A DNA stretch of 64,000 bases from positions 64,001 through 128,000 of the forward strand of contig JAEOTA010000012.1 of assembly GCA_016840085.1 (NCBI GenBank). The letters are read 5' to 3'. A program made the position numbers and the translations under genes. This DNA is from Promethearchaeota archaeon. GTDB taxonomy: Archaea; Asgardarchaeota; Lokiarchaeia; Sigyniarchaeales; SOKP01. Below the pieces are notes generated by a model. The model did no database searches and was not told the DNA's origin. It worked only from the letters and a program-made list of their open reading frames with translations. Shown here in pieces: positions 5,254 to 43,572 of the stretch (position 1 is its first letter; each line of letters begins with the position of its first letter).

Positions 5254-5967
5254 ATGGGTAAGAATCGACCTGAAACAACTCTTTTTCTAATGCAATCATT
5301 GGATGGAAAAATTTCTACGGGGAATGTCGATGAACGAGATCAAGAAATTGATTTTCCTAAAATCAAAGGTATTAAAGAAGGCAATTATCAATACTATGAT
5401 CTTTTACTTAAAACTGATAGACATGCTTTAATCAGTGGAAAAGTATTAGCTAAAATTGGTGTTAATTCACGTGATAGAGTTGATAATTATAAGGATGTCA
5501 ATCTAATTATAATTGATCGCAAACCACATCTCACAAAAAATGGAATGAATTATTTAATAAATTCATTTAAATCTATCTATGTTGTAACAAACGACAAAAA
5601 CCATCCAGCTTTTAATATTTCAAATGAAAAAGAACTTAGTATTATTTATTATCCGAATGAAATTAATTTTGAAGAATTATTTGGAAAACTAAAGCAAGAT
5701 TATAAAATTGAAAAGATATCAATTCAATCAGGGGGAACATTGAACTCATTATTTCTTAAACATAAAATTATTGATCATATTTCTATTATAATCGCTCCCA
5801 GTCTAGTTGGTGGAAAAGATACACCTACATCAATAGATGGAGTAGCTCCTCAGACTAATGATGATTTATTTAATATAAAGGCTCTAGAACTTAAAAAATG
5901 TGAAATATTGAAACATTCCTATATCTATCTTTATTACGATGTAATAAATGAAACAATAATAGAATAA
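5254..5967 (+). CDS. RibD C-terminal / dihydrofolate reductase-like protein
   Basis: QSLDGKI N-terminus; SGGTLN, IIDHISIIIAPSLVGG and TPT motifs. Confidence 0.82.
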   Translation: MGKNRPETTLFLMQSLDGKISTGNVDERDQEIDFPKIKGIKEGNYQYYDLLLKTDRHALISGKVLAKIGVNSRDRVDNYKDVNLIIIDRKPHLTKNGMNYLINSFKSIYVVTNDKNHPAFNISNEKELSIIYYPNEINFEELFGKLKQDYKIEKISIQSGGTLNSLFLKHKIIDHISIIIAPSLVGGKDTPTSIDGVAPQTNDDLFNIKALELKKCEILKHSYIYLYYDVINETIIE

Positions 5968-33934: not shown

Positions 33935-34828
33935 ATGTCACTTGAAAGAAGAAGAGAAGTTAAAAAAACAAAAGAAAAAGAGATTTTAGAAGATAGTTCA
34001 TTTAGGCGTGAAGATTTTAGACCATTACAAGAATTTAAAGAAGTAGAAGAAAAAGAGATAAAAGAAGAAAAAGTAATCGAGGAATTAACCGAAATTGAAA
34101 AGGACGTTCTAGATGTTGCTAAAGATATTTTAAAATTAAAACGTTATGATGCTGAATTTGAGATTGAATCACAAAGTCAAATACAAAAATATCCAATAAT
34201 CGAAAAACTCTATGCTAAATGCAGAGCGAAACTTTCTTATAGAAAAGGATATAGTAAGGAAGAAATCTTTCTTGCGATTAGAACTTTAGAGGAAAAATCA
34301 TATATTGTCACGAATGAGAGGAGAACTAAATTAGAAATACTTTCTAATGAAAAACTTATGAAGATTTTAAATTTCATTAAAGAAAATCCTGGAATCCATG
34401 CAAGAGATGAAAAAATTACGACTGAATTAGAAATAACCAGAACCCCATTTTTAAAACATGTAATGACTCTAGAACGCTTTGATCTTATTAGATCTAAGAA
34501 AATTGGTAAATCTCTTCATTATTTTTTAAGTGAAGTACCAGAAGATTATGACAAATTTAAGGTCATTTTTCTAAATCCCTTGATTCCTCAAATCTTAGAA
34601 GAATTTTTTAAAGATAAATCAATAAAAATTTCAGAAATTGGAAATACTCTTGAAATTTATTCTGGGACAATTTTATATCATGTTAAGAAATTAAAAGAAC
34701 TAAATATAGTCAAATCCACTAAAAATCAATCAAATAAGAAAATTCATCTTGTGAATGTTGAGCTATTAAAAAAATATAATGATTATTTTAAAGAACCGGA
34801 TTTCTCTAAACTTCTAAAAGGTTTATAA
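33935..34828 (+). CDS. Tandem winged-HTH transcription regulator
   Basis: ILNFIKENPGIH...LERFDLI and ISEIG...ILYHVKKLKELNIV. Confidence 0.78.
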   Translation: MSLERRREVKKTKEKEILEDSSFRREDFRPLQEFKEVEEKEIKEEKVIEELTEIEKDVLDVAKDILKLKRYDAEFEIESQSQIQKYPIIEKLYAKCRAKLSYRKGYSKEEIFLAIRTLEEKSYIVTNERRTKLEILSNEKLMKILNFIKENPGIHARDEKITTELEITRTPFLKHVMTLERFDLIRSKKIGKSLHYFLSEVPEDYDKFKVIFLNPLIPQILEEFFKDKSIKISEIGNTLEIYSGTILYHVKKLKELNIVKSTKNQSNKKIHLVNVELLKKYNDYFKEPDFSKLLKGL

Positions 34829-35388
34829 TCTAATGAAGATTTCTTAGGGTTGATATCTGGCTTAAGAGAAATAATAATCAATTATTTCTTGATTTAATAT
34901 ATTCATAGATAAATTTAATCAACAATAGTTTTTCCAAATAAAAACTAAAAACAAACTATATATCTTCTACAAAATAGATCCAGAAATCCTTACCTTTTTG
35001 CTTTTTCAGGATTAAAAAATTTATTTTCAATTAAAAAAGAGGAAATTGTTATACAGTAAGAACTGCCTGCACTTGCTGAAGATGCTTTAAACGGATAATA
35101 ATTTTTTTAATATTTTAAGAATTGTTACATCTCAGTTTTACTTTTAGCTAAAAGGTCGTGTTCTAGGCTATTTTCAACAATATAAATATCATATTCATTA
35201 TCATTGTCAATATATTTGTTTTTAAAAATTTAAGGAGGTACATTAATATAATTACCAGAGGTGCTATAGATTCATTTATGTCGATAAACTATCCATCTAT
35301 CCTTTAATTGCTTGGTCAATTTTAGAAATTAATTCTATTTCCTTATATCATCATTATTCATCCATGATTTTCTTCGAAATTTTTTATA

Positions 35389-35438
35389 TTTTTTAATCTT
35401 CTAAATAACTTTTGCTCATTAGGACGTAAAAGTCTACC
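35389..35438. repeat. 50-bp direct repeat, copy 1 (fragment of TFB-like coding sequence; att-like)
   Basis: 47/50 identical to 42296..42345; immediately followed by a tandem duplication of agtctacc. Confidence 0.9.
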
Positions 35439-35769
35439 AGTCTACCAGCTTTACTCACATTCCCTTTTATAGGTCTCACACCGACTGTAATTTCAATGGC
35501 AGGTAAAATCCCAAATTATATTCATGAAATTTTGCGTAGTCTAGGAATAATTTCTGAACCATTATCTTTAGATACCAATGTTTACAAACCAATTTAAATA
35601 TTAAATCTCACTTTTTTTATGTTCAAATCTCTCACTACTGGATTTTGCATTTACCCTATTTTTTTTGTATAAATAGATCTACCATATTTATTGTCTAAAA
35701 ACATAATTTAAGGCATTTTTTAAATTTAGGTAATAAAATTTTTTGAGTCTAAACATAGACAAGATAGAT

Positions 35770-37164
35770 TCACACCTTCAATGTAGTGTTATCCCTTGCT
35801 AAACCTAAAAAATAATTCCGTACGCCTTCTTTCTTGGATTTTGACATACCGCATTTTCTCAATGATAAAGGGATTATCTGTTTTATAAACCGTTTGACCG
35901 TGTCGGGAGCGACTCCCAATACTTTTGTTGCTTTTTCTTGAGAATAGGAGTCAATTCCGATATATAAAATAAAAGATAGTACAACCTTCTCTCGACGGGT
36001 AACACAAAGTAGGGCCATTCTTTTACAAACCCCCTTGATCAATTCATGAAGGATATCAGTGTTCTCTTTAATTTCTTTTATATATATGAATCGCTTTAAT
36101 AACTGAGTTATAGGGTCATAGACCATTAATATACACGCCTTCTTGGTTGTTAATCCTTGGTCTGTCTGTTTAATTCTTTTAAGCTTTTCTTTTCTACCAG
36201 CTAAGATAGGATTACCATACTTCTTTTCTCCTTTTATTGATAAATTGATCCCAAAATAGATTCTTAATCCCTTACTTCTGCCTGATTGATTTGTCGTGAC
36301 GCCAAGTCTATGTAAGTAATTTGTTAATTTTGCTTTGGTGATAGCTTTAAATCCTTTTTCCTTAAGATATATGTTTACTGCCTGTAATAATCCTTTTTGA
36401 GTAATCATTTTCTCTTCGCTTAAAATACATAACCTTTCTATGAATTTTCTTATGTTCACATCAGTTTTATCTCTTTCAATGAAGACCTCTAAATATTGAG
36501 AATCTCTCCCCGTCCAAGTAAGGAAATTTTTAAGACGGTATAAATATGTTTGTCGTGTTAACATTTTTAGTTTTTTAAAGCTCTTAGAATCAATCCAAGA
36601 TAAGACTCTTGATTTATTAAAATCTAAATCCCATTTAGAAAATTCTCCATATGATATTAGTGGCCTGTGATAACCAAATTTCCCTTTAACTTTTGAATGT
36701 TCCTCAAAAACATTACGAACATTTTGGAAAAATTTTAAAAAAGACTCTGAATCTTCCACTTCTCTCTTTTTGCCCACGATATATTTAGGGATAGCTATAT
36801 TTTTTCCCAGCCATTTAGCAAAGCTGTAAATCCTGGTTCTATAACTCTTTTGTGTCTTCTCACTTAGATTTTGAAATTCTATTGAGCTAAATCCTTTAAT
36901 CATATCATTTTCTGAAAAATCTATTCTCCAGTTGATACATCTCCCAAATTTAATTAAGGCTGATTTCCAAGTTGATCTTGATCGGTTGGAAGTAGTGATA
37001 TTTTGATCTAAAAAGGTATTTGTTTTCTTAAGATATAAAATCTTTGCCTTTTTGGAGTCTTCCTTATTGGTTTTCTTATTGAGAATTGCTTCTTCTTCCT
37101 TAATGAATTTAATATTTGATCTTTTATGATTTATTTTATTAATTCCCATTTTATCACCGTTCAT
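35770..37164 (-). CDS. Chimeric DNA-binding protein: two integrase core-binding-like domains, a primase-C-like wHTH and a TFB-like HTH
   Basis: LSEKTQKSYRTRIYSFAKWL and TRQTYLYRLKNFLTW; IRKFIERLC...GLRIYFGINL; ILYIG...SQEKATKVLGVAPDTVKR. Confidence 0.5.
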   Translation of the reverse strand: MNGDKMGINKINHKRSNIKFIKEEEAILNKKTNKEDSKKAKILYLKKTNTFLDQNITTSNRSRSTWKSALIKFGRCINWRIDFSENDMIKGFSSIEFQNLSEKTQKSYRTRIYSFAKWLGKNIAIPKYIVGKKREVEDSESFLKFFQNVRNVFEEHSKVKGKFGYHRPLISYGEFSKWDLDFNKSRVLSWIDSKSFKKLKMLTRQTYLYRLKNFLTWTGRDSQYLEVFIERDKTDVNIRKFIERLCILSEEKMITQKGLLQAVNIYLKEKGFKAITKAKLTNYLHRLGVTTNQSGRSKGLRIYFGINLSIKGEKKYGNPILAGRKEKLKRIKQTDQGLTTKKACILMVYDPITQLLKRFIYIKEIKENTDILHELIKGVCKRMALLCVTRREKVVLSFILYIGIDSYSQEKATKVLGVAPDTVKRFIKQIIPLSLRKCGMSKSKKEGVRNYFLGLARDNTTLKV

Positions 37165-37466
37165 TTATTTATTTTTAAATATAAATACCCCCAAATTTTT
37201 ATCTCAATTTCGGGAAACTAAAATCCTTGTAAAAATAATAAACTATACCTTCTAATGACATCTAGAACATAGGAGAAATAGAGGTGAGTGAAAGTATAAT
37301 TAGAAAATGGGAAGAATGAGATATACTAAATTGACTCAAAAAATTAAATCTTAAAGAGAGAGAAAATATAGGCAAGATTGTATTAAATAATTAACTTTTT
37401 TTTATGGACCCCAATAATATCTAGTTACTTTAGTTTTATAAAGCGTATCATTCCATTTCAAAATTC

Positions 37467-38939
37467 TTAACATAAAAATCCCTTAGACAATCCTTTCATT
37501 TTCTTATAACTTTTCATAATAAATATTATCCGTAATGGATTTAAAATAAATAGAAAACCTCTTTTTCTAATAATTCTCTTTAAAATCCCCCTAATTTTAT
37601 TTTTCAGCTTAATATTTTTGAAAGAATAAGTAATGAGATCATGTATTTGCTTCAAAGTTAATTGATAAGTTTTTGTGACGGGATGTAGAAAATCATAGTT
37701 AGACCAATCTTTAGATACAATTAATCCTTTCTCATCTAACTCATTATATATTTCTGTTCCTAGAAATGGTGAAAGTGAAAGCACATTTATAAGATCAATT
37801 TCAGTTTTATTAATAAATCTTATATCCTTCCGAATCATCTCTCCAGTTGCGTTTAAATCCAATCCAATTATTAGTGAACCAAATACAATTATGTCATTAG
37901 CATGTAATATCTTAACAGCTTCCATTATTTTATCGAAAGAAACTTTTTTATTAATATCTTTTAAAGTATCTTCATTTACACTTTCAATACCTATAAACAC
38001 AACCCAGAATCCCGCCTTACTCATCTTCTCAACCATTTTAGGAGATTTTACAATATCATCCGCTCTTAATTGTGTGAAGAATTTAAAATCTCTTATTTCA
38101 TTCTTCTTTTTACAATCAATTATTCTCTCACATAATTTCTCGATTCTTTCCGAATTTATTGCAAAATTATCATCGGTAATATAGATATCTGTAATTTTTC
38201 CATTATGAGAGATCCTTTTTAATTCATTTATTACATTATCTATCTTTCTGGCTCTCCATATTTTATTAAAAAAAGGTGATGTAGAACAAAAATTACAAGA
38301 AAAGGGGCATCCTCTTGAAGTTTCTATGGCATCTAATGATAATCCAAATAATTTATATTTATTTTTTCTAACGAGAGTTCTAGCAGGTAATCTAATATTA
38401 GCAAAATCTTCTTTTCTCATTAATGAGCGATCTGGATTATGAATAATTTCTCCATTTTTTCTATAAGAAATTCCATTTATATTTTCTGGTTTTCCCTTTA
38501 CAATTAATTCTCGGAATGTTAATTCACCCTCTCCTCTAATAATATAATCAATACAATTCAAATTTAATGTATCTTCCGCAACAAAGGTGGGATGCCTCCC
38601 ACCTAATACAACTTTGCAATCAGTATTAATTTCCTTCACCATTTTTGCAATATCTATACAACAATTAATTGCTGAAGACACAAAAACACTAATCCCAACA
38701 ATATTCGGATTAAATTTCTCTATTTTTCTTTTTAATCGAGAATAAGTTAAATTTTCAGCTCTCGCATCAAAAATCTTTAATTCAATACCAAGATCAATTA
38801 TATATGATGCTATATACATTAAATTTAAAGGCGGAAAGACGACTTTAAGATATACCCAACCATTTGATGTATAATTTGGATTGATTAATAAAACTCTATT
38901 CCATCTATATTTCTCTATTATCTTTTCATTAATCTGCAT
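37467..38939 (-). CDS. B12-binding domain radical SAM protein
   Basis: VLLINP, PPLNLMYIAS, VLGGRHPT, GEGE, ETSRGCPFSCNFC. Confidence 0.93.
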   Translation of the reverse strand: MQINEKIIEKYRWNRVLLINPNYTSNGWVYLKVVFPPLNLMYIASYIIDLGIELKIFDARAENLTYSRLKRKIEKFNPNIVGISVFVSSAINCCIDIAKMVKEINTDCKVVLGGRHPTFVAEDTLNLNCIDYIIRGEGELTFRELIVKGKPENINGISYRKNGEIIHNPDRSLMRKEDFANIRLPARTLVRKNKYKLFGLSLDAIETSRGCPFSCNFCSTSPFFNKIWRARKIDNVINELKRISHNGKITDIYITDDNFAINSERIEKLCERIIDCKKKNEIRDFKFFTQLRADDIVKSPKMVEKMSKAGFWVVFIGIESVNEDTLKDINKKVSFDKIMEAVKILHANDIIVFGSLIIGLDLNATGEMIRKDIRFINKTEIDLINVLSLSPFLGTEIYNELDEKGLIVSKDWSNYDFLHPVTKTYQLTLKQIHDLITYSFKNIKLKNKIRGILKRIIRKRGFLFILNPLRIIFIMKSYKKMKGLSKGFLC

Positions 38940-39218
38940 TATCCTTAATAATAATTTTTATTATTTTGAGTTAGCAACACATACTTTATTCTAGTTTTAT
39001 CAAAACAATCCTTACAATCCTTACTGCAACCATCACACTCCTTCCTCTTAGGTAGCTAAATATAAAGTTTTATAGTATTGCTTTCATCATCATTATAGGT
39101 TATGAATTATTAATCTATGTTTCAATCTTATGTGCTCCGGGCATGGGTGACCAACGGTGGCTAGATAGGTAAAAATTTAAGATTCAAGGATAACAAGACT
39201 ATACAAATTCCGAATTAT

Positions 39219-40688
39219 CTAAAACCTTGATTGAAATGTTTCAATTTCCCAAGATTTAGATTTTTCATCTCGAGTAGCGCATAGAATTTTTTTACCGTCA
39301 GTACGAACATTTACTAATCCATATATTATTCCTCCTGCAATTTGGGTTCTATCAAAGCTCTTCTTTCTAAGTTTTCGCTTTAGTTTAAAATATATTTCTG
39401 GATTATCCTTTGATTTTAGGGTAATATCAATCTTATTTCCATCGACTTCATAATTTTTTTTCAAAATTTTATGCAACATACTTAGATTAATACTTCGCGA
39501 GATTTCTGTCGAATATAACAAGGGAGTAACGATTTTATCTCTCTTAATGATTTTATATCCAGATAAAGCGCTAGCAGAGAGAACACTGGGACGCGGGTGG
39601 CCATAGGATTCATTATCACCAGAAGATATCACTGTCATTCCAGCATTTATTCTTGAAAGAAATTCAAAAGAGTAGTCTTCACTTCCGTGATGACATGCTT
39701 TGGCTATATCACATGAAAATTCTTGTAATTGGTCTCTATAATGGTTCAAATACCGTTTTTGACTCCTTTTATTCAAGTCTCCTGTTAGCAAAATTCTAAC
39801 ACTGCCATAATCCAATCTAAGGAGAATACTATGACCATTGCTATCTTGACTTGTGGATCCAAATGAAAAAAAAGCAGGTGTACTATCTACTTTGGTTTCA
39901 ATTGGACCTAAAACTTTCAATGATGCTTTTCCATCACATGGTTCAAAATCTGGAATATATCCTGATTTATTGGTAAGACGTTTGATAGGATTGTTATTTA
40001 GTTTTTTAATAACATCATTCATGAATTCTGCCCATGGACCATATAATTTACTTTCATTAACTCCATTCAGAGCCTTTTCAATGCTTTCCTTATCATCCAA
40101 TAACTGTACTAAATAATTTAAATTTTGTTTCTTTACTTTTTTTCCAAGTGTTTTATCCCCCTGAGAAATTACCCATCGCCCTAATCCTGCATGATAAAAA
40201 GCTTTAATTTCAATATTGTCCCATAGAATATCTAATTCTTCTTGTTCCTCTTTATTTATTAAATCCCATAACCCTCCGTAATGATCTTCATCACAATGTG
40301 ATACAATCATTGCATCAATTACCATTTTTTCTAAACCATAATCTTTGTTAAATTTCCAATCTACGAAATCTGCCGTATTTTTTCCTGTAATCTGTTTACT
40401 TCTTCTGTTTCCTCCATCAATCATTACATGTCGACCATCAGGCATTCGTATTAATATTCCATCTCCTTGCCCGACATCTATAAAATATAGTTCAAGAAGC
40501 GGTGTATCCCCAAGAACTGTAGGATTTACATATCCTTCTTCCCCTCTGCCTTTAACTAAGGTTTTCTGTGAATCAGTAGCATCTACTACTTCCACTTCAT
40601 CTCCCCAAAGAAAATAAAGAATAGTTTTACCTTGTTCATCAACTAACTTGGTTGTATCTACATTAATATATTTTTTTGTCATTTTCAA
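39219..40688 (-). CDS. ComEC/Rec2-type metallo-beta-lactamase-fold hydrolase (soluble, possible SH3-like N-terminus)
   Basis: DVGQGD, SHCDEDHYGG, LLTGD, KACHHGS, YGHP; no membrane domain. Confidence 0.85.
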   Translation of the reverse strand: MKMTKKYINVDTTKLVDEQGKTILYFLWGDEVEVVDATDSQKTLVKGRGEEGYVNPTVLGDTPLLELYFIDVGQGDGILIRMPDGRHVMIDGGNRRSKQITGKNTADFVDWKFNKDYGLEKMVIDAMIVSHCDEDHYGGLWDLINKEEQEELDILWDNIEIKAFYHAGLGRWVISQGDKTLGKKVKKQNLNYLVQLLDDKESIEKALNGVNESKLYGPWAEFMNDVIKKLNNNPIKRLTNKSGYIPDFEPCDGKASLKVLGPIETKVDSTPAFFSFGSTSQDSNGHSILLRLDYGSVRILLTGDLNKRSQKRYLNHYRDQLQEFSCDIAKACHHGSEDYSFEFLSRINAGMTVISSGDNESYGHPRPSVLSASALSGYKIIKRDKIVTPLLYSTEISRSINLSMLHKILKKNYEVDGNKIDITLKSKDNPEIYFKLKRKLRKKSFDRTQIAGGIIYGLVNVRTDGKKILCATRDEKSKSWEIETFQSRF

Positions 40689-41592
40689 ACCCCAACTTAT
40701 TTAATAATTCAATATTGGATTTTTAGTAGCTGAGGTATGAGGATGAAAGGATCCAATATTTAGTTTTTGATCTTAGATCTTTAATAGAGTTTTAGACCAT
40801 TTTTAGACTTTAATGTAAAAAATATTACACAATGATATCCTTTTTGACGTGTTTTTGCGTTTTCCTGGCACAAGGCTATAATATAATTCCAACTTTAATA
40901 TTTATTTTTTTAAGAGTAGATTTCGGGATGATTATCCTTGTGAAAAACTTAATAATCCTGAAAAGCTATTTCAGAAAATTAAAGAAATAAATAATTGGTT
41001 TAACTAGCAAGATTAATCCATTAGACTTTTTAAGATACTATAAAATAATCTTTAATTGGTTTAGCGACAACAGACCTCCTAATAATAAGCTATCATACTA
41101 AATCATCTCAACTTATAATAGGGAATGGAATATTTAATGATAGTAAAGTACGTATACCTAAGTTAATTCTCAGAGATCGGTTATTCAATTGGGTCAAAAG
41201 AATCAGTTTTAAATTAAAAGAAGTGCTGGCTTCTTTATATTCAATAATATAGAAATCATCGTAGAATACCTTTTTAAAGAAAAGAATATAAAAAAAGTAG
41301 CAATAATAGAATGGGATTGACACCATGGCACCTTTATTTAAAAAATATGAAGGTTTTTTCCAATTAATTGAATTCTTATGAAATTTCTGTTGAGCAAAAA
41401 TTAGATAATCTTATCGATAACCTTAGAAAGGAAAAGAACTCTTCAAAAATGATAGAAGTTAATGAGAAAGCAACCACAATGATTATAAATATATTCCTGT
41501 CTCACATAATTTTTTATTTATAGATTCTATCATGGTGTTGTATACAACTTCACTTTCATGTAATAGTTCCTCATCTACGTTATTGATTGTAT

Positions 41593-42504
41593 CTATCTTA
41601 TTGATTGTTTAAAAATAGGTTTTAAAACATTAACATAATGGTCTCTTATAGAATATTCAGCGATATTAGTAGCTTCAGAAATAATCCATTGAGCTAAGAC
41701 AGGCTTCTGAAAATATTTTTTAGCCAATAGTTTGTCTGCTAAATAAATTATCCCCCCTGTTAAAATAAAGGGATTTCTACCTCCACGCTGTTTCATAGGT
41801 AACTTTTTTAATATTTCACGACACTGTATAGTCAACTTATTTTGAAATTCTCCTTTTGACCAAAGTACATTTTTCTTTTTTAATCTCTCTTCCAAATCTT
41901 TATGATTTATGACTTGATTAATTAATCTCATGAGATAATCTTCACTTTTATGAGGGAAATTCTCATCTTTAATATGATGTTTATATTCTATTCCATCTCT
42001 TAAGATTAATCTCGGATTAACTCGATGACCATAGTTTTGAAAAGCCTCAGAGATCTCCTTTATTGTAATAGGTGCATTATGATATTCTTTCCTCGCAGCA
42101 TAAAATATACAAAACCCTATTAATGAGATATTATTTACAACCTTAACCTCATTTTTGATTATTTTCCTGTAATAATACGCTGCGTTGTTTCTAATATTTT
42201 TATTGAGATTTAGATATGACGAAATTTTATTTAAAATATTAAAAATTCTGTATTCTGTTTCATGATTTTTAAGCCTTAATAATAGGTCATAATTTTTTTT
42301 TAATCTTCTAAATAATTTTTGTTCATTCGGACGTAAAAGTCTACCGGTTTTATCTTTTAAAAACTTAGTATTTCCATAATCTATATATGAACCTAATCCT
42401 CCAATAAAATCAGTACGCTCCCCTAAAGCTATATATTGTTTGCTTAAATTTCTTTCATTATTCTTATTATTTTCAGTATAAACAAAAGATGATTCTTTAT
42501 AAAA
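41593..42504 (-). pseudogene. 5'-truncated TFB-like paralog (zinc ribbon and start codon missing)
   Basis: The frame of ORF 41593..41931 stays open to 42504 (303 codons). It includes LKDKTGRLLRPNEQKLFRRLKK, cyclin repeat 1 (ISSYLNL...AAYYYRKI...ITIKEIS) and repeat 2 (GRNPFILTGGIIYLA...ISEATNIAEYSIRD). In-frame stop at 42505-42507. Confidence 0.85.
42296..42345. repeat. 50-bp direct repeat, copy 2 (inside the TFB-like gene)
   Basis: ttttttaatcttctaaataatttttgttcattcggacgtaaaagtctacc. Confidence 0.9.
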
Positions 42505-42600
42505 TTATATTGAACCTATTGATTTGAATCTCTGTATAACTTGTAGGAAAGAAAGAAAACAAGATATTATTAAAAAGTTTAAAAGCTTATTACCTTCGGA

Positions 42601-43203
42601 TTAAAACTTCGCTAATTCTTTGCTTACCTTAAATGAAAAAACGTCATTAACATGGTTTATTAATTCTCTCATAACTCTTTCAAATTCTTTCTTATTTATA
42701 ATTTCTTTATTCTCATCTAAAGATATTAATTTGCAAATTGGATCTAGTCCAATAAGGTATTTATCCAGAATATAGAGTTCTGAAGATCTATACGTTGCTT
42801 TACCCATATCAAGAGGGTGTACATCTTCTTCTTCCTTCTGATTGATCTCAATTCCAATTTTAATCAAAATCTCGGGAAATTTTTGAGATATAAAATGAAT
42901 AAAAGACATTGAACCTGAAAATCTATAATAACCTCTCTTTTTAGTATTCATAAGGTATTTTAGATAACCCTTTACTCTTTTAATAATTTGAATAACTATA
43001 TCTTTTTCATCCCTTTCTTTCTCTTTTCTTTCAATCCCTTTTATAATAAAAGGTAAAATAAGAGCTGTTATAATGCTGAATTGAGTTGTTAGGTTTTGAA
43101 ACAAGGATATAGGAAAAATTATAGATAATATAATTAATATTATTACTATAATAATTAGAGAAAAAACAACCTTATTCTTTAGTAATTCTTTATAGCTTAT
43201 CAT
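42601..43203 (-). CDS. Hypothetical protein with two N-terminal TM helices
   Basis: Hydrophobic residues about 11-54; overlaps the upstream ORF by 4 nt. Confidence 0.65.
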   Translation of the reverse strand: MISYKELLKNKVVFSLIIIVIILIILSIIFPISLFQNLTTQFSIITALILPFIIKGIERKEKERDEKDIVIQIIKRVKGYLKYLMNTKKRGYYRFSGSMSFIHFISQKFPEILIKIGIEINQKEEEDVHPLDMGKATYRSSELYILDKYLIGLDPICKLISLDENKEIINKKEFERVMRELINHVNDVFSFKVSKELAKF

Positions 43204-43442
43204 GTCTTAAATTCCTTATTAAAACTCTTATATGAAGTTTTTCCTCTATAATATCTGCGAACATTCATATGATAGAAAATATTATTACATTCAGAACATC
43301 CTAAGATTTGTATTCTATCACTTTCATCAAAAATTTCAGGTTGTATACCTTCAAAATTAATTTTTATTGCTATTACTTGTTTCTTACATACAGGACATCT
43401 AGCCATCATTCTATATTTATAAAAGCTTATTCTTGAATTCAA
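43200..43442 (-). CDS. Small zinc-finger protein
   Basis: CPVC...CSEC. Confidence 0.6.
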   Translation of the reverse strand: MNSRISFYKYRMMARCPVCKKQVIAIKINFEGIQPEIFDESDRIQILGCSECNNIFYHMNVRRYYRGKTSYKSFNKEFKT

Positions 43443-43513
43443 AATTAATACCTTAATACCTTAATTAATTATTAGATGGTAAAAGCTCTCTTCTTTTCCT
43501 ATATAAGCTTCTA

Positions 43514-43572
43514 GGGTAGCCGATTTTCTGATTCTTTACTTATCACCTGACGGGTTCAGTTCCCGCTACCTG
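43514..43572. ncRNA. Structured, tRNA-like GC-rich element lacking a D-arm
   Basis: gggtag/ctacct closing stem, tgat/atca hairpin and a cggg-ttcagtt-cccg T-arm-like hairpin. Confidence 0.35.

What the first reader, a model, noticed from the sequence alone, without database searches (positions are those of the whole stretch)
35389..42345. 50-bp direct repeat from inside a TFB-like gene brackets a 7-kb island, with only synonymous differences
Seen: 35389-35438 matches 42296-42345 at 47/50 positions. On the minus strand both read GRLLRPNEQKLFRRLK, and all three mismatches are synonymous third positions (ccg/cct, gaa/gag, aaa/aag). Inference: the short copy came from another functional allele of the gene rather than from random decay. 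That is the pattern of an att core inside a protein-coding gene, so a TFB paralog may serve as an integration hotspot instead of a tRNA. The cargo between the repeats is a chimeric integrase-like protein, a B12 radical SAM enzyme and a ComEC-like hydrolase.
Basis: partly seen in the sequence, partly recalled or inferred. Interest (0 to 1): 0.72.

Follow-up and report, generated by a model that had tools for sequence, protein, structure and literature searches.

The report
Leftover transcription-factor gene scrap inside island
The 50-base repeat is real, but the short copy is a stray leftover piece of an extra transcription-factor (TFB-like) gene lying inside a very large foreign DNA island, not the island's docking site; the real insertion point is about 1 kb to the left, inside a neighbouring regulator gene.

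Summary
In detail: 35389-35438 matches 42296-42345 at 47/50, none expected by chance, and all three mismatches are synonymous.

The att reading fails.
- The short copy is an isolated 52-nt TFB piece with sharp edges and an 8-nt tandem duplication.
- It is 51/52 identical to a full-length TFB paralog 51 kb away on the same contig, closer than to the in-window copy.
- The in-window TFB is itself a 5'-truncated duplicate. It has no zinc ribbon and no start codon, and it ends at a rearrangement junction at 42503/42504.
- No recombinase catalytic domain was found on this contig.
- None of 53 genus relatives has an isolated copy of the 50-mer.
- No relative places the wHTH gene next to a TFB gene.

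Both repeat copies lie inside a much larger accessory island whose left junction is inside the wHTH gene, at about 34290-34300. The gene's 5' part is native and its last 524 nt are foreign. The displaced native 3' half sits on another contig (C4). The same breakpoint occurs in at least three other Promethearchaeota (Loki-type) genomes, and 43 of 52 species show the empty site.

Best reading: the 50-mer is gene debris from TFB-paralog turnover inside a mosaic island (confidence about 0.7).

The parts
35389..35441 (-). Isolated 52-53-nt piece of a TFB-like gene. It corresponds to codons ~108-125 of the full-length paralog and reads GRLLRPNEQKLFRRLK, followed by unrelated codons and a stop.
   Evidence: It is 51/52 identical to C69:150888-150939 and 49/53 to 42296-42348. 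The flanks show no TFB similarity (z about 0).
35434..35449 (-). 8-nt tandem duplication (CTGGTAGA twice on the minus strand) at the 5' edge of the piece. Five further bases beyond it (TAAAG) also match the source gene.
   Evidence: Read directly. It shifts the frame, as expected of non-coding debris.
42296..42348 (-). The matching stretch inside the truncated in-window TFB copy.
41593..42504 (-). 5'-truncated TFB-like paralog. It has 303 open codons, no zinc ribbon, and no ATG/GTG/TTG before codon ~192. It is 95.5% identical over 917 nt to the full-length copy at C69:150180-151096.
   Evidence: dN/dS is 0.126 and dS 0.165. The Pfam TFIIB-repeat match is below the family cut-off.
42503..42604 (+). 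C-terminal 33 codons of a 71-aa zinc-ribbon gene, also cut at its 5' end. It abuts the truncated TFB head to head, which marks a deletion or rearrangement junction at 42503/42504.
   Evidence: The full copy lies at C69:169633-169845. Homology of 42503-43542 to C69:169731-168694 is 81% and starts exactly at the junction.
33935..34828 (+). Chimeric wHTH regulator gene, the real left junction of the island. The first 351 nt are native (91.5% identical to G024, 98.3% to G067). The last 524 nt are foreign (74% to G024). The break is at about 34290-34300.
34304..34828 (+). Island-supplied replacement 3' half of the wHTH gene (signature SYIVTNERR in place of native NWIVTNERR). Its displaced native counterpart is at contig C4:5860-6384.
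35770..37164 (-). 'Integrase-like' protein of 464 aa. It has two integrase N-terminal SAM-like (core-binding type) stretches, no detectable catalytic domain, and is predicted to be all-helical.
   Evidence: It is absent from 53 genus genomes. Only one homolog was found in 5.8 billion proteins. The AlphaFold model was not usable, with pLDDT 40.
37467..38939 (-). B12-binding radical SAM enzyme (cargo). Its paralogs elsewhere in the genome are 23-52% identical.
39219..40688 (-). Metallo-beta-lactamase-fold hydrolase (cargo). It is single-copy in this genome. 'ComEC-like' was not tested beyond the fold family.
41043..41495 (.). Patchwork of three abutting short pieces, 89-92.5% identical to other loci: 41043-41216 to C69:194764; 41219-41328 to the middle of a histone-deacetylase-like gene on C85; 41322-41495 to C22:32097. 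This is more gene debris in the same 7 kb.
   Evidence: The deacetylase-like piece has 9 non-synonymous against 1 synonymous codon change, plus a stop.

Best explanation
The short copy (35389-35441) is a non-functional scrap of an island-borne TFB-like paralog. It is not an attachment site.

This genome carries its ordinary TFB-like gene on contig C81. It also carries extra copies inside a large accessory island:
- a full-length copy at C69:150186-151258;
- a divergent copy at C69:129491-130510;
- the 5'-truncated copy in the window (41593-42504).

Inferred: a further copy of the 150-kb lineage was cut down by deletions or illegitimate recombination to about 65 nt. What remains is a 52-nt core, 98% identical to its source, with an 8-nt slippage duplication at one edge.

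Shown: the 'only synonymous' differences from the in-window copy follow from the fact that the two source paralogs diverged under purifying selection. They need no att function to explain them.

Shown: the segment between the two repeat copies is not a discrete island. It is the first 7 kb of a much larger mosaic element, more than 30 kb within the window and probably more than 100 kb in all. Its left junction lies inside the wHTH gene at about 34290-34300. There the element supplies a replacement 3' half and the native 3' half is displaced to the far end (contig C4).

Not shown: how that large element integrates. No recombinase was found.
For: 1. Closest relative of the scrap. It is 51/52 identical to the full-length paralog and 49/53 to the in-window copy. 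Two of the three mismatches to the in-window copy are shared with the 150-kb copy.
2. Sharp edges. The flanks show no more similarity to the adjoining TFB sequence than shuffled flanks do (z 0.14 and 0.32). An 8-nt tandem duplication breaks the frame.
3. The partner gene is itself a relic. Two 5'-truncated genes abut head to head at 42503/42504.
4. Whittling is directly visible in this lineage. A 246-nt TFB piece at the other island end in sister genome G067 is reduced to about 60 nt in this genome, at C4:4183-4242.
5. Other gene scraps lie in the same 7 kb, including a decayed piece of a deacetylase-like gene.
6. No isolated 50-mer occurs in 53 genus genomes. Every strong hit lies inside a full-length TFB gene.
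7. No Phage_integrase or archaeal-integrase domain was found on C69 or at the C4 end. The integrase-like protein has N-terminal domains only.
8. The true junction is in the wHTH gene. The same break occurs in G067, in isolate H3B.172 and in locus L095. The empty site is present in 43 of 52 species loci.
9. Three assemblies of separate sequencing runs carry the identical integrase-like gene. All three end 379-381 nt past its stop codon, at the outer edge of the scrap. This is what a k-mer assembly graph would do at a real repeat, so the inner junction is probably not a binning artefact (inference; no DNA was returned).
Against: - An isolated piece that is 98% identical requires a recent extra copy, or a short gene-conversion or template-switch event, that is no longer visible. 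The source copy was not observed.
- The scrap lies only 330 nt from the 3' end of the one integrase-related gene of the region and about 1.1 kb from the island junction. A second, older TFB scrap covering the same motif lies near the other end of the island in G067. TFB pieces at both island ends may be more than coincidence.
- The only homolog of the integrase-like gene sits, in another Loki-type genome, in the variable interval that holds the TFB gene in the C81 locus.
- No reads were available, so neither the junctions nor any excision products could be checked directly.
Confidence: 0.7

Rival explanations
1. The scrap is the distal att of a nested element of about 51.5 kb (window 35442 to C69:150887) that integrated into the island-borne TFB gene. 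The full-length copy at 150 kb would then be native 5' part plus core plus element-supplied 3' part. The non-catalytic integrase-like protein beside the scrap would be a DNA-binding accessory, with catalysis coming from a host recombinase such as the XerA-like gene on C49.
For: - The two cores are 51/52 identical and in direct orientation.
- The integrase-related gene is adjacent to one core.
- The enclosed DNA carries a pilus/VirB4/Orc1 gene set typical of a self-transmissible element (earlier notes e1-5573666 and e1-5573681, not re-tested here).
- It is absent from relatives, including the sister genome G067.
- The TFB at 150 kb is intact.
Against: - The displaced native 3' part (about 700 nt) that should follow the distal core is missing, and the flank has no TFB similarity.
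- The core carries a frame-breaking 8-nt duplication.
- No catalytic recombinase is present in the element.
- No other genome shows this core at an edge.
- Divergence along the TFB copies shows no significant break at the core.
Confidence: 0.1
2. The scrap is a short templated patch. During replication or break repair a polymerase switched onto the TFB template for about 65 nt, slipped back 8 nt, and returned. No third gene copy ever existed at this place.
For: - The edges are sharp, with 5-nt microhomology (TAAAG), and the other edge lies in an A-run.
- There is an 8-nt tandem duplication at the entry point.
- The piece is near-identical (98%) to a template on the same replicon.
- A chain of three abutting short pieces from different loci lies at 41043-41495, with a 7-nt overlap at one joint.
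Against: - Direct precedent in this lineage favours erosion by deletion: the G067 246-nt piece is down to 60 nt here, and there is a deletion junction at 42503/42504.
- Templated patch insertion has not, to my knowledge, been described in archaea.
- Sequence alone cannot distinguish this from erosion.
Confidence: 0.15
3. The two copies are attL and attR of a 7-kb element (integrase-like gene, radical SAM enzyme, hydrolase) that integrated into a TFB paralog.
For: - Direct repeats of 47/50 lie 6.9 kb apart.
- An integrase-related gene lies just inside one repeat.
- The cargo is absent from relatives.
Against: - The flanks outside the repeats are not contiguous in any relative.
- The TFB copy is continuous through the core on both sides and is itself a truncated duplicate.
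- The short copy is closer to another paralog.
- No displaced gene part is present, and no catalytic domain.
- No such island edge was found in 53 genomes.
Confidence: 0.03

Closest known systems
Gene remnants (pseudogene fragments) in accessory regions of prokaryotic genomes
   Same: It is a short piece of a coding gene with sharp edges, a frame-breaking indel, no start codon and no conservation in relatives. It lies among other scraps in strain-specific DNA.
   Different: It is unusually young, 98% identical to its source, and very short. It also covers the most conserved stretch of the gene, which is what made it look selected.
e14 prophage in the E. coli icd gene, with the icdC C-terminal pseudogene (Hill et al. 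1989, PMC210168; PMC13626634)
   Same: This architecture is found here for the wHTH gene. The element sits inside a coding gene and supplies an alternative 3' end that keeps the gene open. The native C-terminal fragment is displaced to the far end.
   Different: It does not apply to the TFB 50-mer. The replaced part is long (524 nt, 59% of the gene) and only 73% identical to the native half. The island is far larger, and no integrase was found.
[quoted passage not shown]
   Same: The host is an archaeon. The targets there include transcription regulators (AsnC family) and a zinc-finger protein gene. That study validated sites the same way, by comparing occupied and empty sites in related species. 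It also describes relaxase-free integrative-conjugative elements.
   Different: Those elements have short att sites (tens of bp) and tyrosine integrases. Here the junction shows at most about 14 identical bases, a long replacement gene part, and no detectable integrase.
SSV-type 'suicidal' integrases whose attP lies inside the integrase gene (PMC7253208, title and abstract only)
   Same: An att site lies inside a coding gene of an archaeal element.
   Different: There the partitioned gene is the integrase itself. Here neither the TFB gene nor the integrase-like gene is split in that way.

Membership tests
attL/attR pair of a site-specific integrative element (the 50-mer pair) | The sequences outside the two repeats are contiguous in relatives that lack the element (empty site) | tested here: not met
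   In relatives the wHTH gene is followed by a PNP-family gene, homologous to contig C4:6399-7280, and never by a TFB gene. The sequence right of 42504 is accessory too.
attL/attR pair of a site-specific integrative element (the 50-mer pair) | The target gene is split or rebuilt, with its displaced part next to the distal repeat | tested here: not met
   The TFB frame runs through the core on both sides. The flanks of the isolated copy have no TFB similarity.
attL/attR pair of a site-specific integrative element (the 50-mer pair) | A recombinase with a catalytic domain is encoded in the element | tested here: not met
   PF00589 hits only contigs C49 and C19, and PF16795 hits nothing. The 464-aa protein matches only Phage_int_SAM_4. 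Serine recombinases, Cas1 and transposases were not searched.
attL/attR pair of a site-specific integrative element (the 50-mer pair) | The same site is used in other genomes (isolated core copies at island edges) | tested here: not met
   The 65-nt query was searched against 54 genus genomes. All hits with E < 1e-4 lie inside full-length TFB genes, except the isolated copy in this genome.
Element inserted in a protein-coding gene with replacement of its 3' part (the wHTH junction) | Chimeric gene with a native 5' part and a foreign 3' part | tested here: met
   The 5' 351 nt are 91.5% identical to G024 and 98.3% to G067. The 3' 524 nt are 74% identical to G024.
Element inserted in a protein-coding gene with replacement of its 3' part (the wHTH junction) | The displaced native 3' part lies at the far end, followed by the native downstream genes | tested here: met
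   C4:5860-6384 (residues 123-297) is 87% identical to G024 and 97% to G067, and is followed by conserved genes. C4:1-5858 is absent from relatives. The physical link between C69 and C4 is inferred, because both contigs end in repeats.
Element inserted in a protein-coding gene with replacement of its 3' part (the wHTH junction) | Empty sites in relatives, and the same breakpoint in independent genomes | tested here: met
   43 of 52 species loci are empty. The same break occurs in G067, in isolate H3B.172 (L073 and L110) and in L095. In H3B.172 the island-end giant ORF is 92.8% identical while the flanking chromosome is about 72%.
Element inserted in a protein-coding gene with replacement of its 3' part (the wHTH junction) | Element-encoded integrase and a short identical att core | tested here: not met
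   No integrase domain was found. The longest identical run at the junction is about 14 nt. The assembled island is incomplete.
TFB/TFIIB family (the gene that holds the 50-mer) | N-terminal zinc ribbon plus cyclin-like TFIIB repeats | tested here: inconclusive
   The full-length copies hit Zn_Ribbon_TF (21-22 bits, cut-off 29) and the TFIIB repeat (22.4-24.9 bits, cut-off 23.6). Only the C81 copy passes a cut-off. The in-window copy lacks the ribbon.
Diversity-generating retroelement template and variable repeat pair | Mismatches confined to adenines of the template repeat | tested here: not met
   The mismatches are T/G, G/A and G/A at third codon positions. No reverse transcriptase was searched for.

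The most novel reading that the evidence does not exclude
TFB-like genes really are a docking target in this lineage. Under this reading the 52-nt core next to the non-catalytic integrase-like gene is the far att of a roughly 51-kb pilus/VirB4/Orc1 element that inserted into an island-borne TFB gene. The older TFB scrap at the other island end in G067 would be a scar of an earlier such event. Integration would then use a DNA-binding protein with integrase core-binding domains plus a host recombinase, with no element-encoded catalytic integrase.
Probability: 0.08. Interest if true: 0.7.

Novelty: new member of a known kind. Interest (0 to 1): 0.3.

Why it matters
As stated, the finding would have made a basal transcription-factor gene an integration hotspot in the archaea closest to eukaryotes. 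The evidence does not support that. The repeat is ordinary gene debris, and its 'synonymous only' pattern is inherited from two selected paralogs.

Three by-products are useful:
- Large mosaic islands in Promethearchaeota (Loki-type Asgard archaea) insert at one codon of a conserved winged-helix regulator gene, in at least four genomes. They replace its C-terminal 175 codons, and no recognisable integrase is present.
- These islands carry extra TFB-like genes that are duplicated, truncated and eroded on a short time scale.
- Short, highly conserved gene scraps inside islands can mimic att cores. Comparing occupied and empty sites in relatives is the test that separates the two.

Tried and rejected
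- Weak TFB homology beyond the 52 nt. A lax blastn extended the match to 35319-35440. A shuffle test of the flanks alone gave z about 0, so I rejected the extension.
- tRNA or known RNA in the 7 kb as an alternative att. ARAGORN found none, and Rfam gave only a chance microRNA match.
- Diversity-generating retroelement template/variable pair. Rejected from the mismatch pattern.
- TFB-like C-terminus in the integrase-like protein. BLASTP gave E > 1.
- Structure of the integrase-like protein. The AlphaFold model had mean pLDDT 40 and was unusable, so no fold search was made.
- More relatives of the integrase-like gene. There are none in 53 genus genomes, one in the 5.8-billion-protein set, and none in metagenome contigs.
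- Exact junction 30-mer in metagenome contigs. No match.
- A recombination break at the core between the two TFB copies. Divergence upstream is 6.4% and downstream 3.8-3.9%; I judged this too small a difference to count as a break, without a formal test.
- GC content does not mark any boundary, at 22-33% throughout.
- The 917-bp TFB repeat pair (41588-42504 and C69:150180-151096) as attL/attR of a 43.7-kb element. Considered, but the left 'end' is a junction of two 5'-truncated genes, which fits a deletion better. It is not excluded.
- Look-up of the exact chimeric wHTH protein in public assemblies. Not on record.
Full report
**Observation.**
The window is G000 contig C69:64001-128000. The contig belongs to a Promethearchaeota (Loki-type Asgard) genome, judging from the record titles of its relatives. 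The stretch 35389-35438 matches 42296-42345 at 47/50, and no such match appeared in 100 shuffles. The repeat finder extends it to 53 nt at 49/53. On the minus strand both copies read GRLLRPNEQKLFRRLK, and the three mismatches are synonymous third positions.

**What the two copies are.**
The long copy lies in a 303-codon frame (41593-42504, minus strand). The frame is TFB-like but has no zinc ribbon and no start codon before codon ~192.

The genome holds a full-length paralog with a zinc ribbon at C69:150186-151258. It also holds a divergent copy at C69:129491-130510 and another on contig C81.
- The in-window frame is 95.5% identical over 917 nt to the 150-kb copy. The homology stops exactly at 42504.
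- At that point a different duplicated block starts: 42503-43542 is 81% identical to C69:169731-168694.
- That block begins with the last 33 codons of a 71-aa zinc-ribbon gene, whose full copy is at C69:169633-169845.

So two genes, both cut at their 5' ends, abut head to head at 42503/42504. This is a deletion or rearrangement junction. The two TFB copies differ by 26 synonymous and 15 non-synonymous changes (dN/dS 0.126, dS 0.165). They therefore diverged while both were under selection, and the truncation is recent.

The short copy is 51/52 identical to the 150-kb copy and only 49/53 to the in-window copy. This explains the 'only synonymous' pattern. The scrap comes from the 150-kb lineage, and that lineage differs from the in-window copy mainly at synonymous sites.

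The scrap has sharp edges:
- At its 5' edge (minus strand) 8 nt are tandemly duplicated, and 5 more bases beyond match the source.
- Beyond that, neither flank resembles the adjoining TFB sequence more than shuffled sequence does. The apparent extension in a lax blastn does not survive this test.
- After FRRLK the frame runs into unrelated codons and a stop.

**Is there a 7-kb island?**
Twenty-four genus relatives are collinear with the window from 29000 up to 34829, the end of the wHTH gene, and no further. Their sequence then continues with DNA that in this genome lies on another contig, C4, from position 5859.
- C4:5860-6384 is a second copy of the last 175 codons of the wHTH gene.
- Along the wHTH gene on C69, identity to the closest of the first-drawn relatives, G024, is 91.5% for the first 351 nt and 74% for the last 524 nt. 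The C4 fragment is 87% identical to G024 over those 524 nt.
- C4:1-5858 has no counterpart in relatives, while C4 from 5859 onward is conserved.
- The rest of the window (46-64 kb) and the end of C69 are not conserved either, even in G067. G067 is the sister genome and is 94-98% identical in the flanks.

The real junction is therefore inside the wHTH gene at about 34290-34300. The insert brings a replacement 3' half and displaces the native half to its far end. Both copies of the 50-mer lie inside this insert. That C69 and C4 are the two ends of one insert is an inference, because both contigs stop in repeated sequence.

**The wHTH site is used repeatedly.**
- In G067, the contig with the 5' part ends at the break. 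Another contig holds the same island end as C4 (92-95% identical), followed by the displaced half.
- Isolate H3B.172 has a full chimeric wHTH gene (L073) and a displaced half covering residues 123-297 (L110). That half is directly preceded by a giant ORF 92.8% identical to C4:1696-4196, while the chromosomal flanks are only about 72% identical. This isolate is probably the same genome as G008, which gave the same two matches.
- The island-type 3' halves of the two genomes are 83% identical, while the native halves are 71%.
- A fourth genome (L095) has the island-type signature SYIVT and no PNP gene downstream.
- 43 of 52 species loci show the empty site, a whole wHTH gene followed by a PNP-family phosphorylase gene.

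Insertion of archaeal elements into the 3'-distal part of protein-coding genes, regulators included, is documented for Thaumarchaeota (PMC6563490). The e14/icd/icdC case in E. coli has the same architecture (PMC13626634). No recombinase was found here:
- PF00589 hits only contigs C49 and C19, and PF16795 hits nothing.
- The 464-aa 'integrase-like' protein has only N-terminal SAM-like domains.
- It has no homolog in 53 genus genomes and one homolog anywhere (56% identity).

**Tests of the att reading of the 50-mer.**
1. Empty site: failed, as shown above.
2. Displaced gene part next to the isolated core: absent.
3. Catalytic recombinase: none found.
4. Recurrence: a 65-nt query over 54 genus genomes gave strong hits only inside full-length TFB genes, apart from the isolated copy in this genome.
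5. The 'target' TFB copies are themselves island DNA. The ortholog shared with relatives is the one on C81. G024 is 88-91% identical to C81 and collinear with it, against 78-82% to the C69 copies.

**Why I read it as debris.**
- The same 7 kb holds a chain of three short pieces, 89-92.5% identical to other loci. One is 110 nt from the middle of a deacetylase-like gene, with 9 non-synonymous changes against 1 synonymous, plus a stop.
- At the other island end, G067 keeps a 246-nt TFB piece (residues 90-171, including the same motif). Only about 60 nt of it remain in this genome, at C4:4183-4242, after a loss of about 1.5 kb. TFB pieces are demonstrably being whittled down in this lineage.
- Three assemblies of separate runs carry the identical integrase-like gene and all stop 379-381 nt past its stop codon, at the outer edge of the scrap. 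This is expected if a real repeat breaks a k-mer assembly graph there (an inference, since no DNA was returned).

**Caveats and rivals.**
The scrap is young, 98% identical to its source, and sits 330 nt from the only integrase-related gene. TFB scraps occur near both island ends in the G000/G067 lineage. The one homolog of the integrase-like gene lies, in another Loki-type genome, in the variable interval that holds the TFB gene in the C81-type locus.

I therefore keep about 10% for a nested element of about 51 kb bounded by the scrap and the 150-kb TFB. Divergence along the two TFB copies shows no clear break at the core.

**Verdict.**
The att and hotspot interpretation is not supported, although the inference that the scrap derives from another functional allele is right. 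The feature is an ordinary gene remnant. The more interesting result lies 1 kb to its left: a recurrent insertion site for large islands inside the wHTH gene, with no detectable integrase. Earlier notes of this scan had already flagged the truncated TFB and the large island on this window. I tested the truncated-TFB and island notes here, fully or in part.

Noticed in passing
window 34290-34828, with G000 contig C4:1-6384 (L023): Large accessory islands insert at codon ~121 of a conserved wHTH regulator gene and replace its last 175 codons. The same break occurs in at least four Promethearchaeota genomes, and 43 of 52 species show the empty site. No integrase was detected.
   Followed up: yes
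L023:1-4188 (G000 C4 start); also L110:877-3377 and L051:6078-8671: A giant ORF (at least 1,395 aa, no Pfam match) sits at the island's right end. Its C-terminus has a motif that looks like a PD-(D/E)xK nuclease, and a LAGLIDADG-like stretch is visible by eye. It is 92-93% identical between genomes whose chromosomal flanks are about 72% identical. Paralogs lie at several contig ends (C81, C35, C13, C85, C86) and break the assembly. It is a candidate for the island's own insertion machinery.
   Followed up: partly
L020:4985-11469 (C69:152985-159469) and L039 (G012:C16:16665-23149): A 6.5-kb block between the island-borne TFB and a Roadblock/GTPase gene block is 93% identical to a contig of another species of the genus, against a background of about 70-77%. 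This points to recent horizontal transfer of a module.
   Followed up: partly
C69:150180-161549 compared with C81:857-6228: The island carries a second, 81-83% identical copy of the chromosomal TFB neighbourhood (TFB plus a 2.1-kb Roadblock/small-GTPase block), with about 6 kb of extra DNA inserted between the two parts.
   Followed up: partly
window 41219-41328: A 110-nt piece of a histone-deacetylase-like gene (source C85:64098-64207, covering the DWDxHH site). It is decayed, with 9 non-synonymous changes against 1 synonymous, plus a stop. It is flanked directly by two other 174-nt pieces copied from C69:194764 and C22:32097.
   Followed up: partly
L023:4183-4242 (C4) and L051:5892-6137 (G067:C60:19891-20136): An older, diverged TFB scrap lies just after the giant ORF at the other island end. 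It is 246 nt (residues 90-171, frame still open) in G067 and about 60 nt in this genome.
   Followed up: partly
L111 (G067 contig C103 end) and L051: The G067 contig with the wHTH 5' part ends 45 nt past the break. Those 45 nt are identical to the displaced copy on another contig. Either the att repeat is long and identical there, or the sampled population mixes occupied and empty sites.
   Followed up: no
L049:10001-11248 (record of GCA_024239015.1, labelled Patescibacteria): The only homolog of the integrase-like protein lies on a contig with Asgard-type genes (Arf/Ras GTPases, Roadblock), so the taxonomic label of that bin looks wrong. The gene sits beside an IS605-type TnpB gene in a variable interval between the Roadblock block and a T2SSE ATPase gene.
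   Followed up: partly
TFB ortholog loci of many genus genomes: In some twenty assemblies the contig ends 0.4-0.9 kb beyond the Roadblock/GTPase block, about 5.3 kb upstream of the TFB ortholog. This suggests a repeated or multi-copy sequence at that spot.
   Followed up: no
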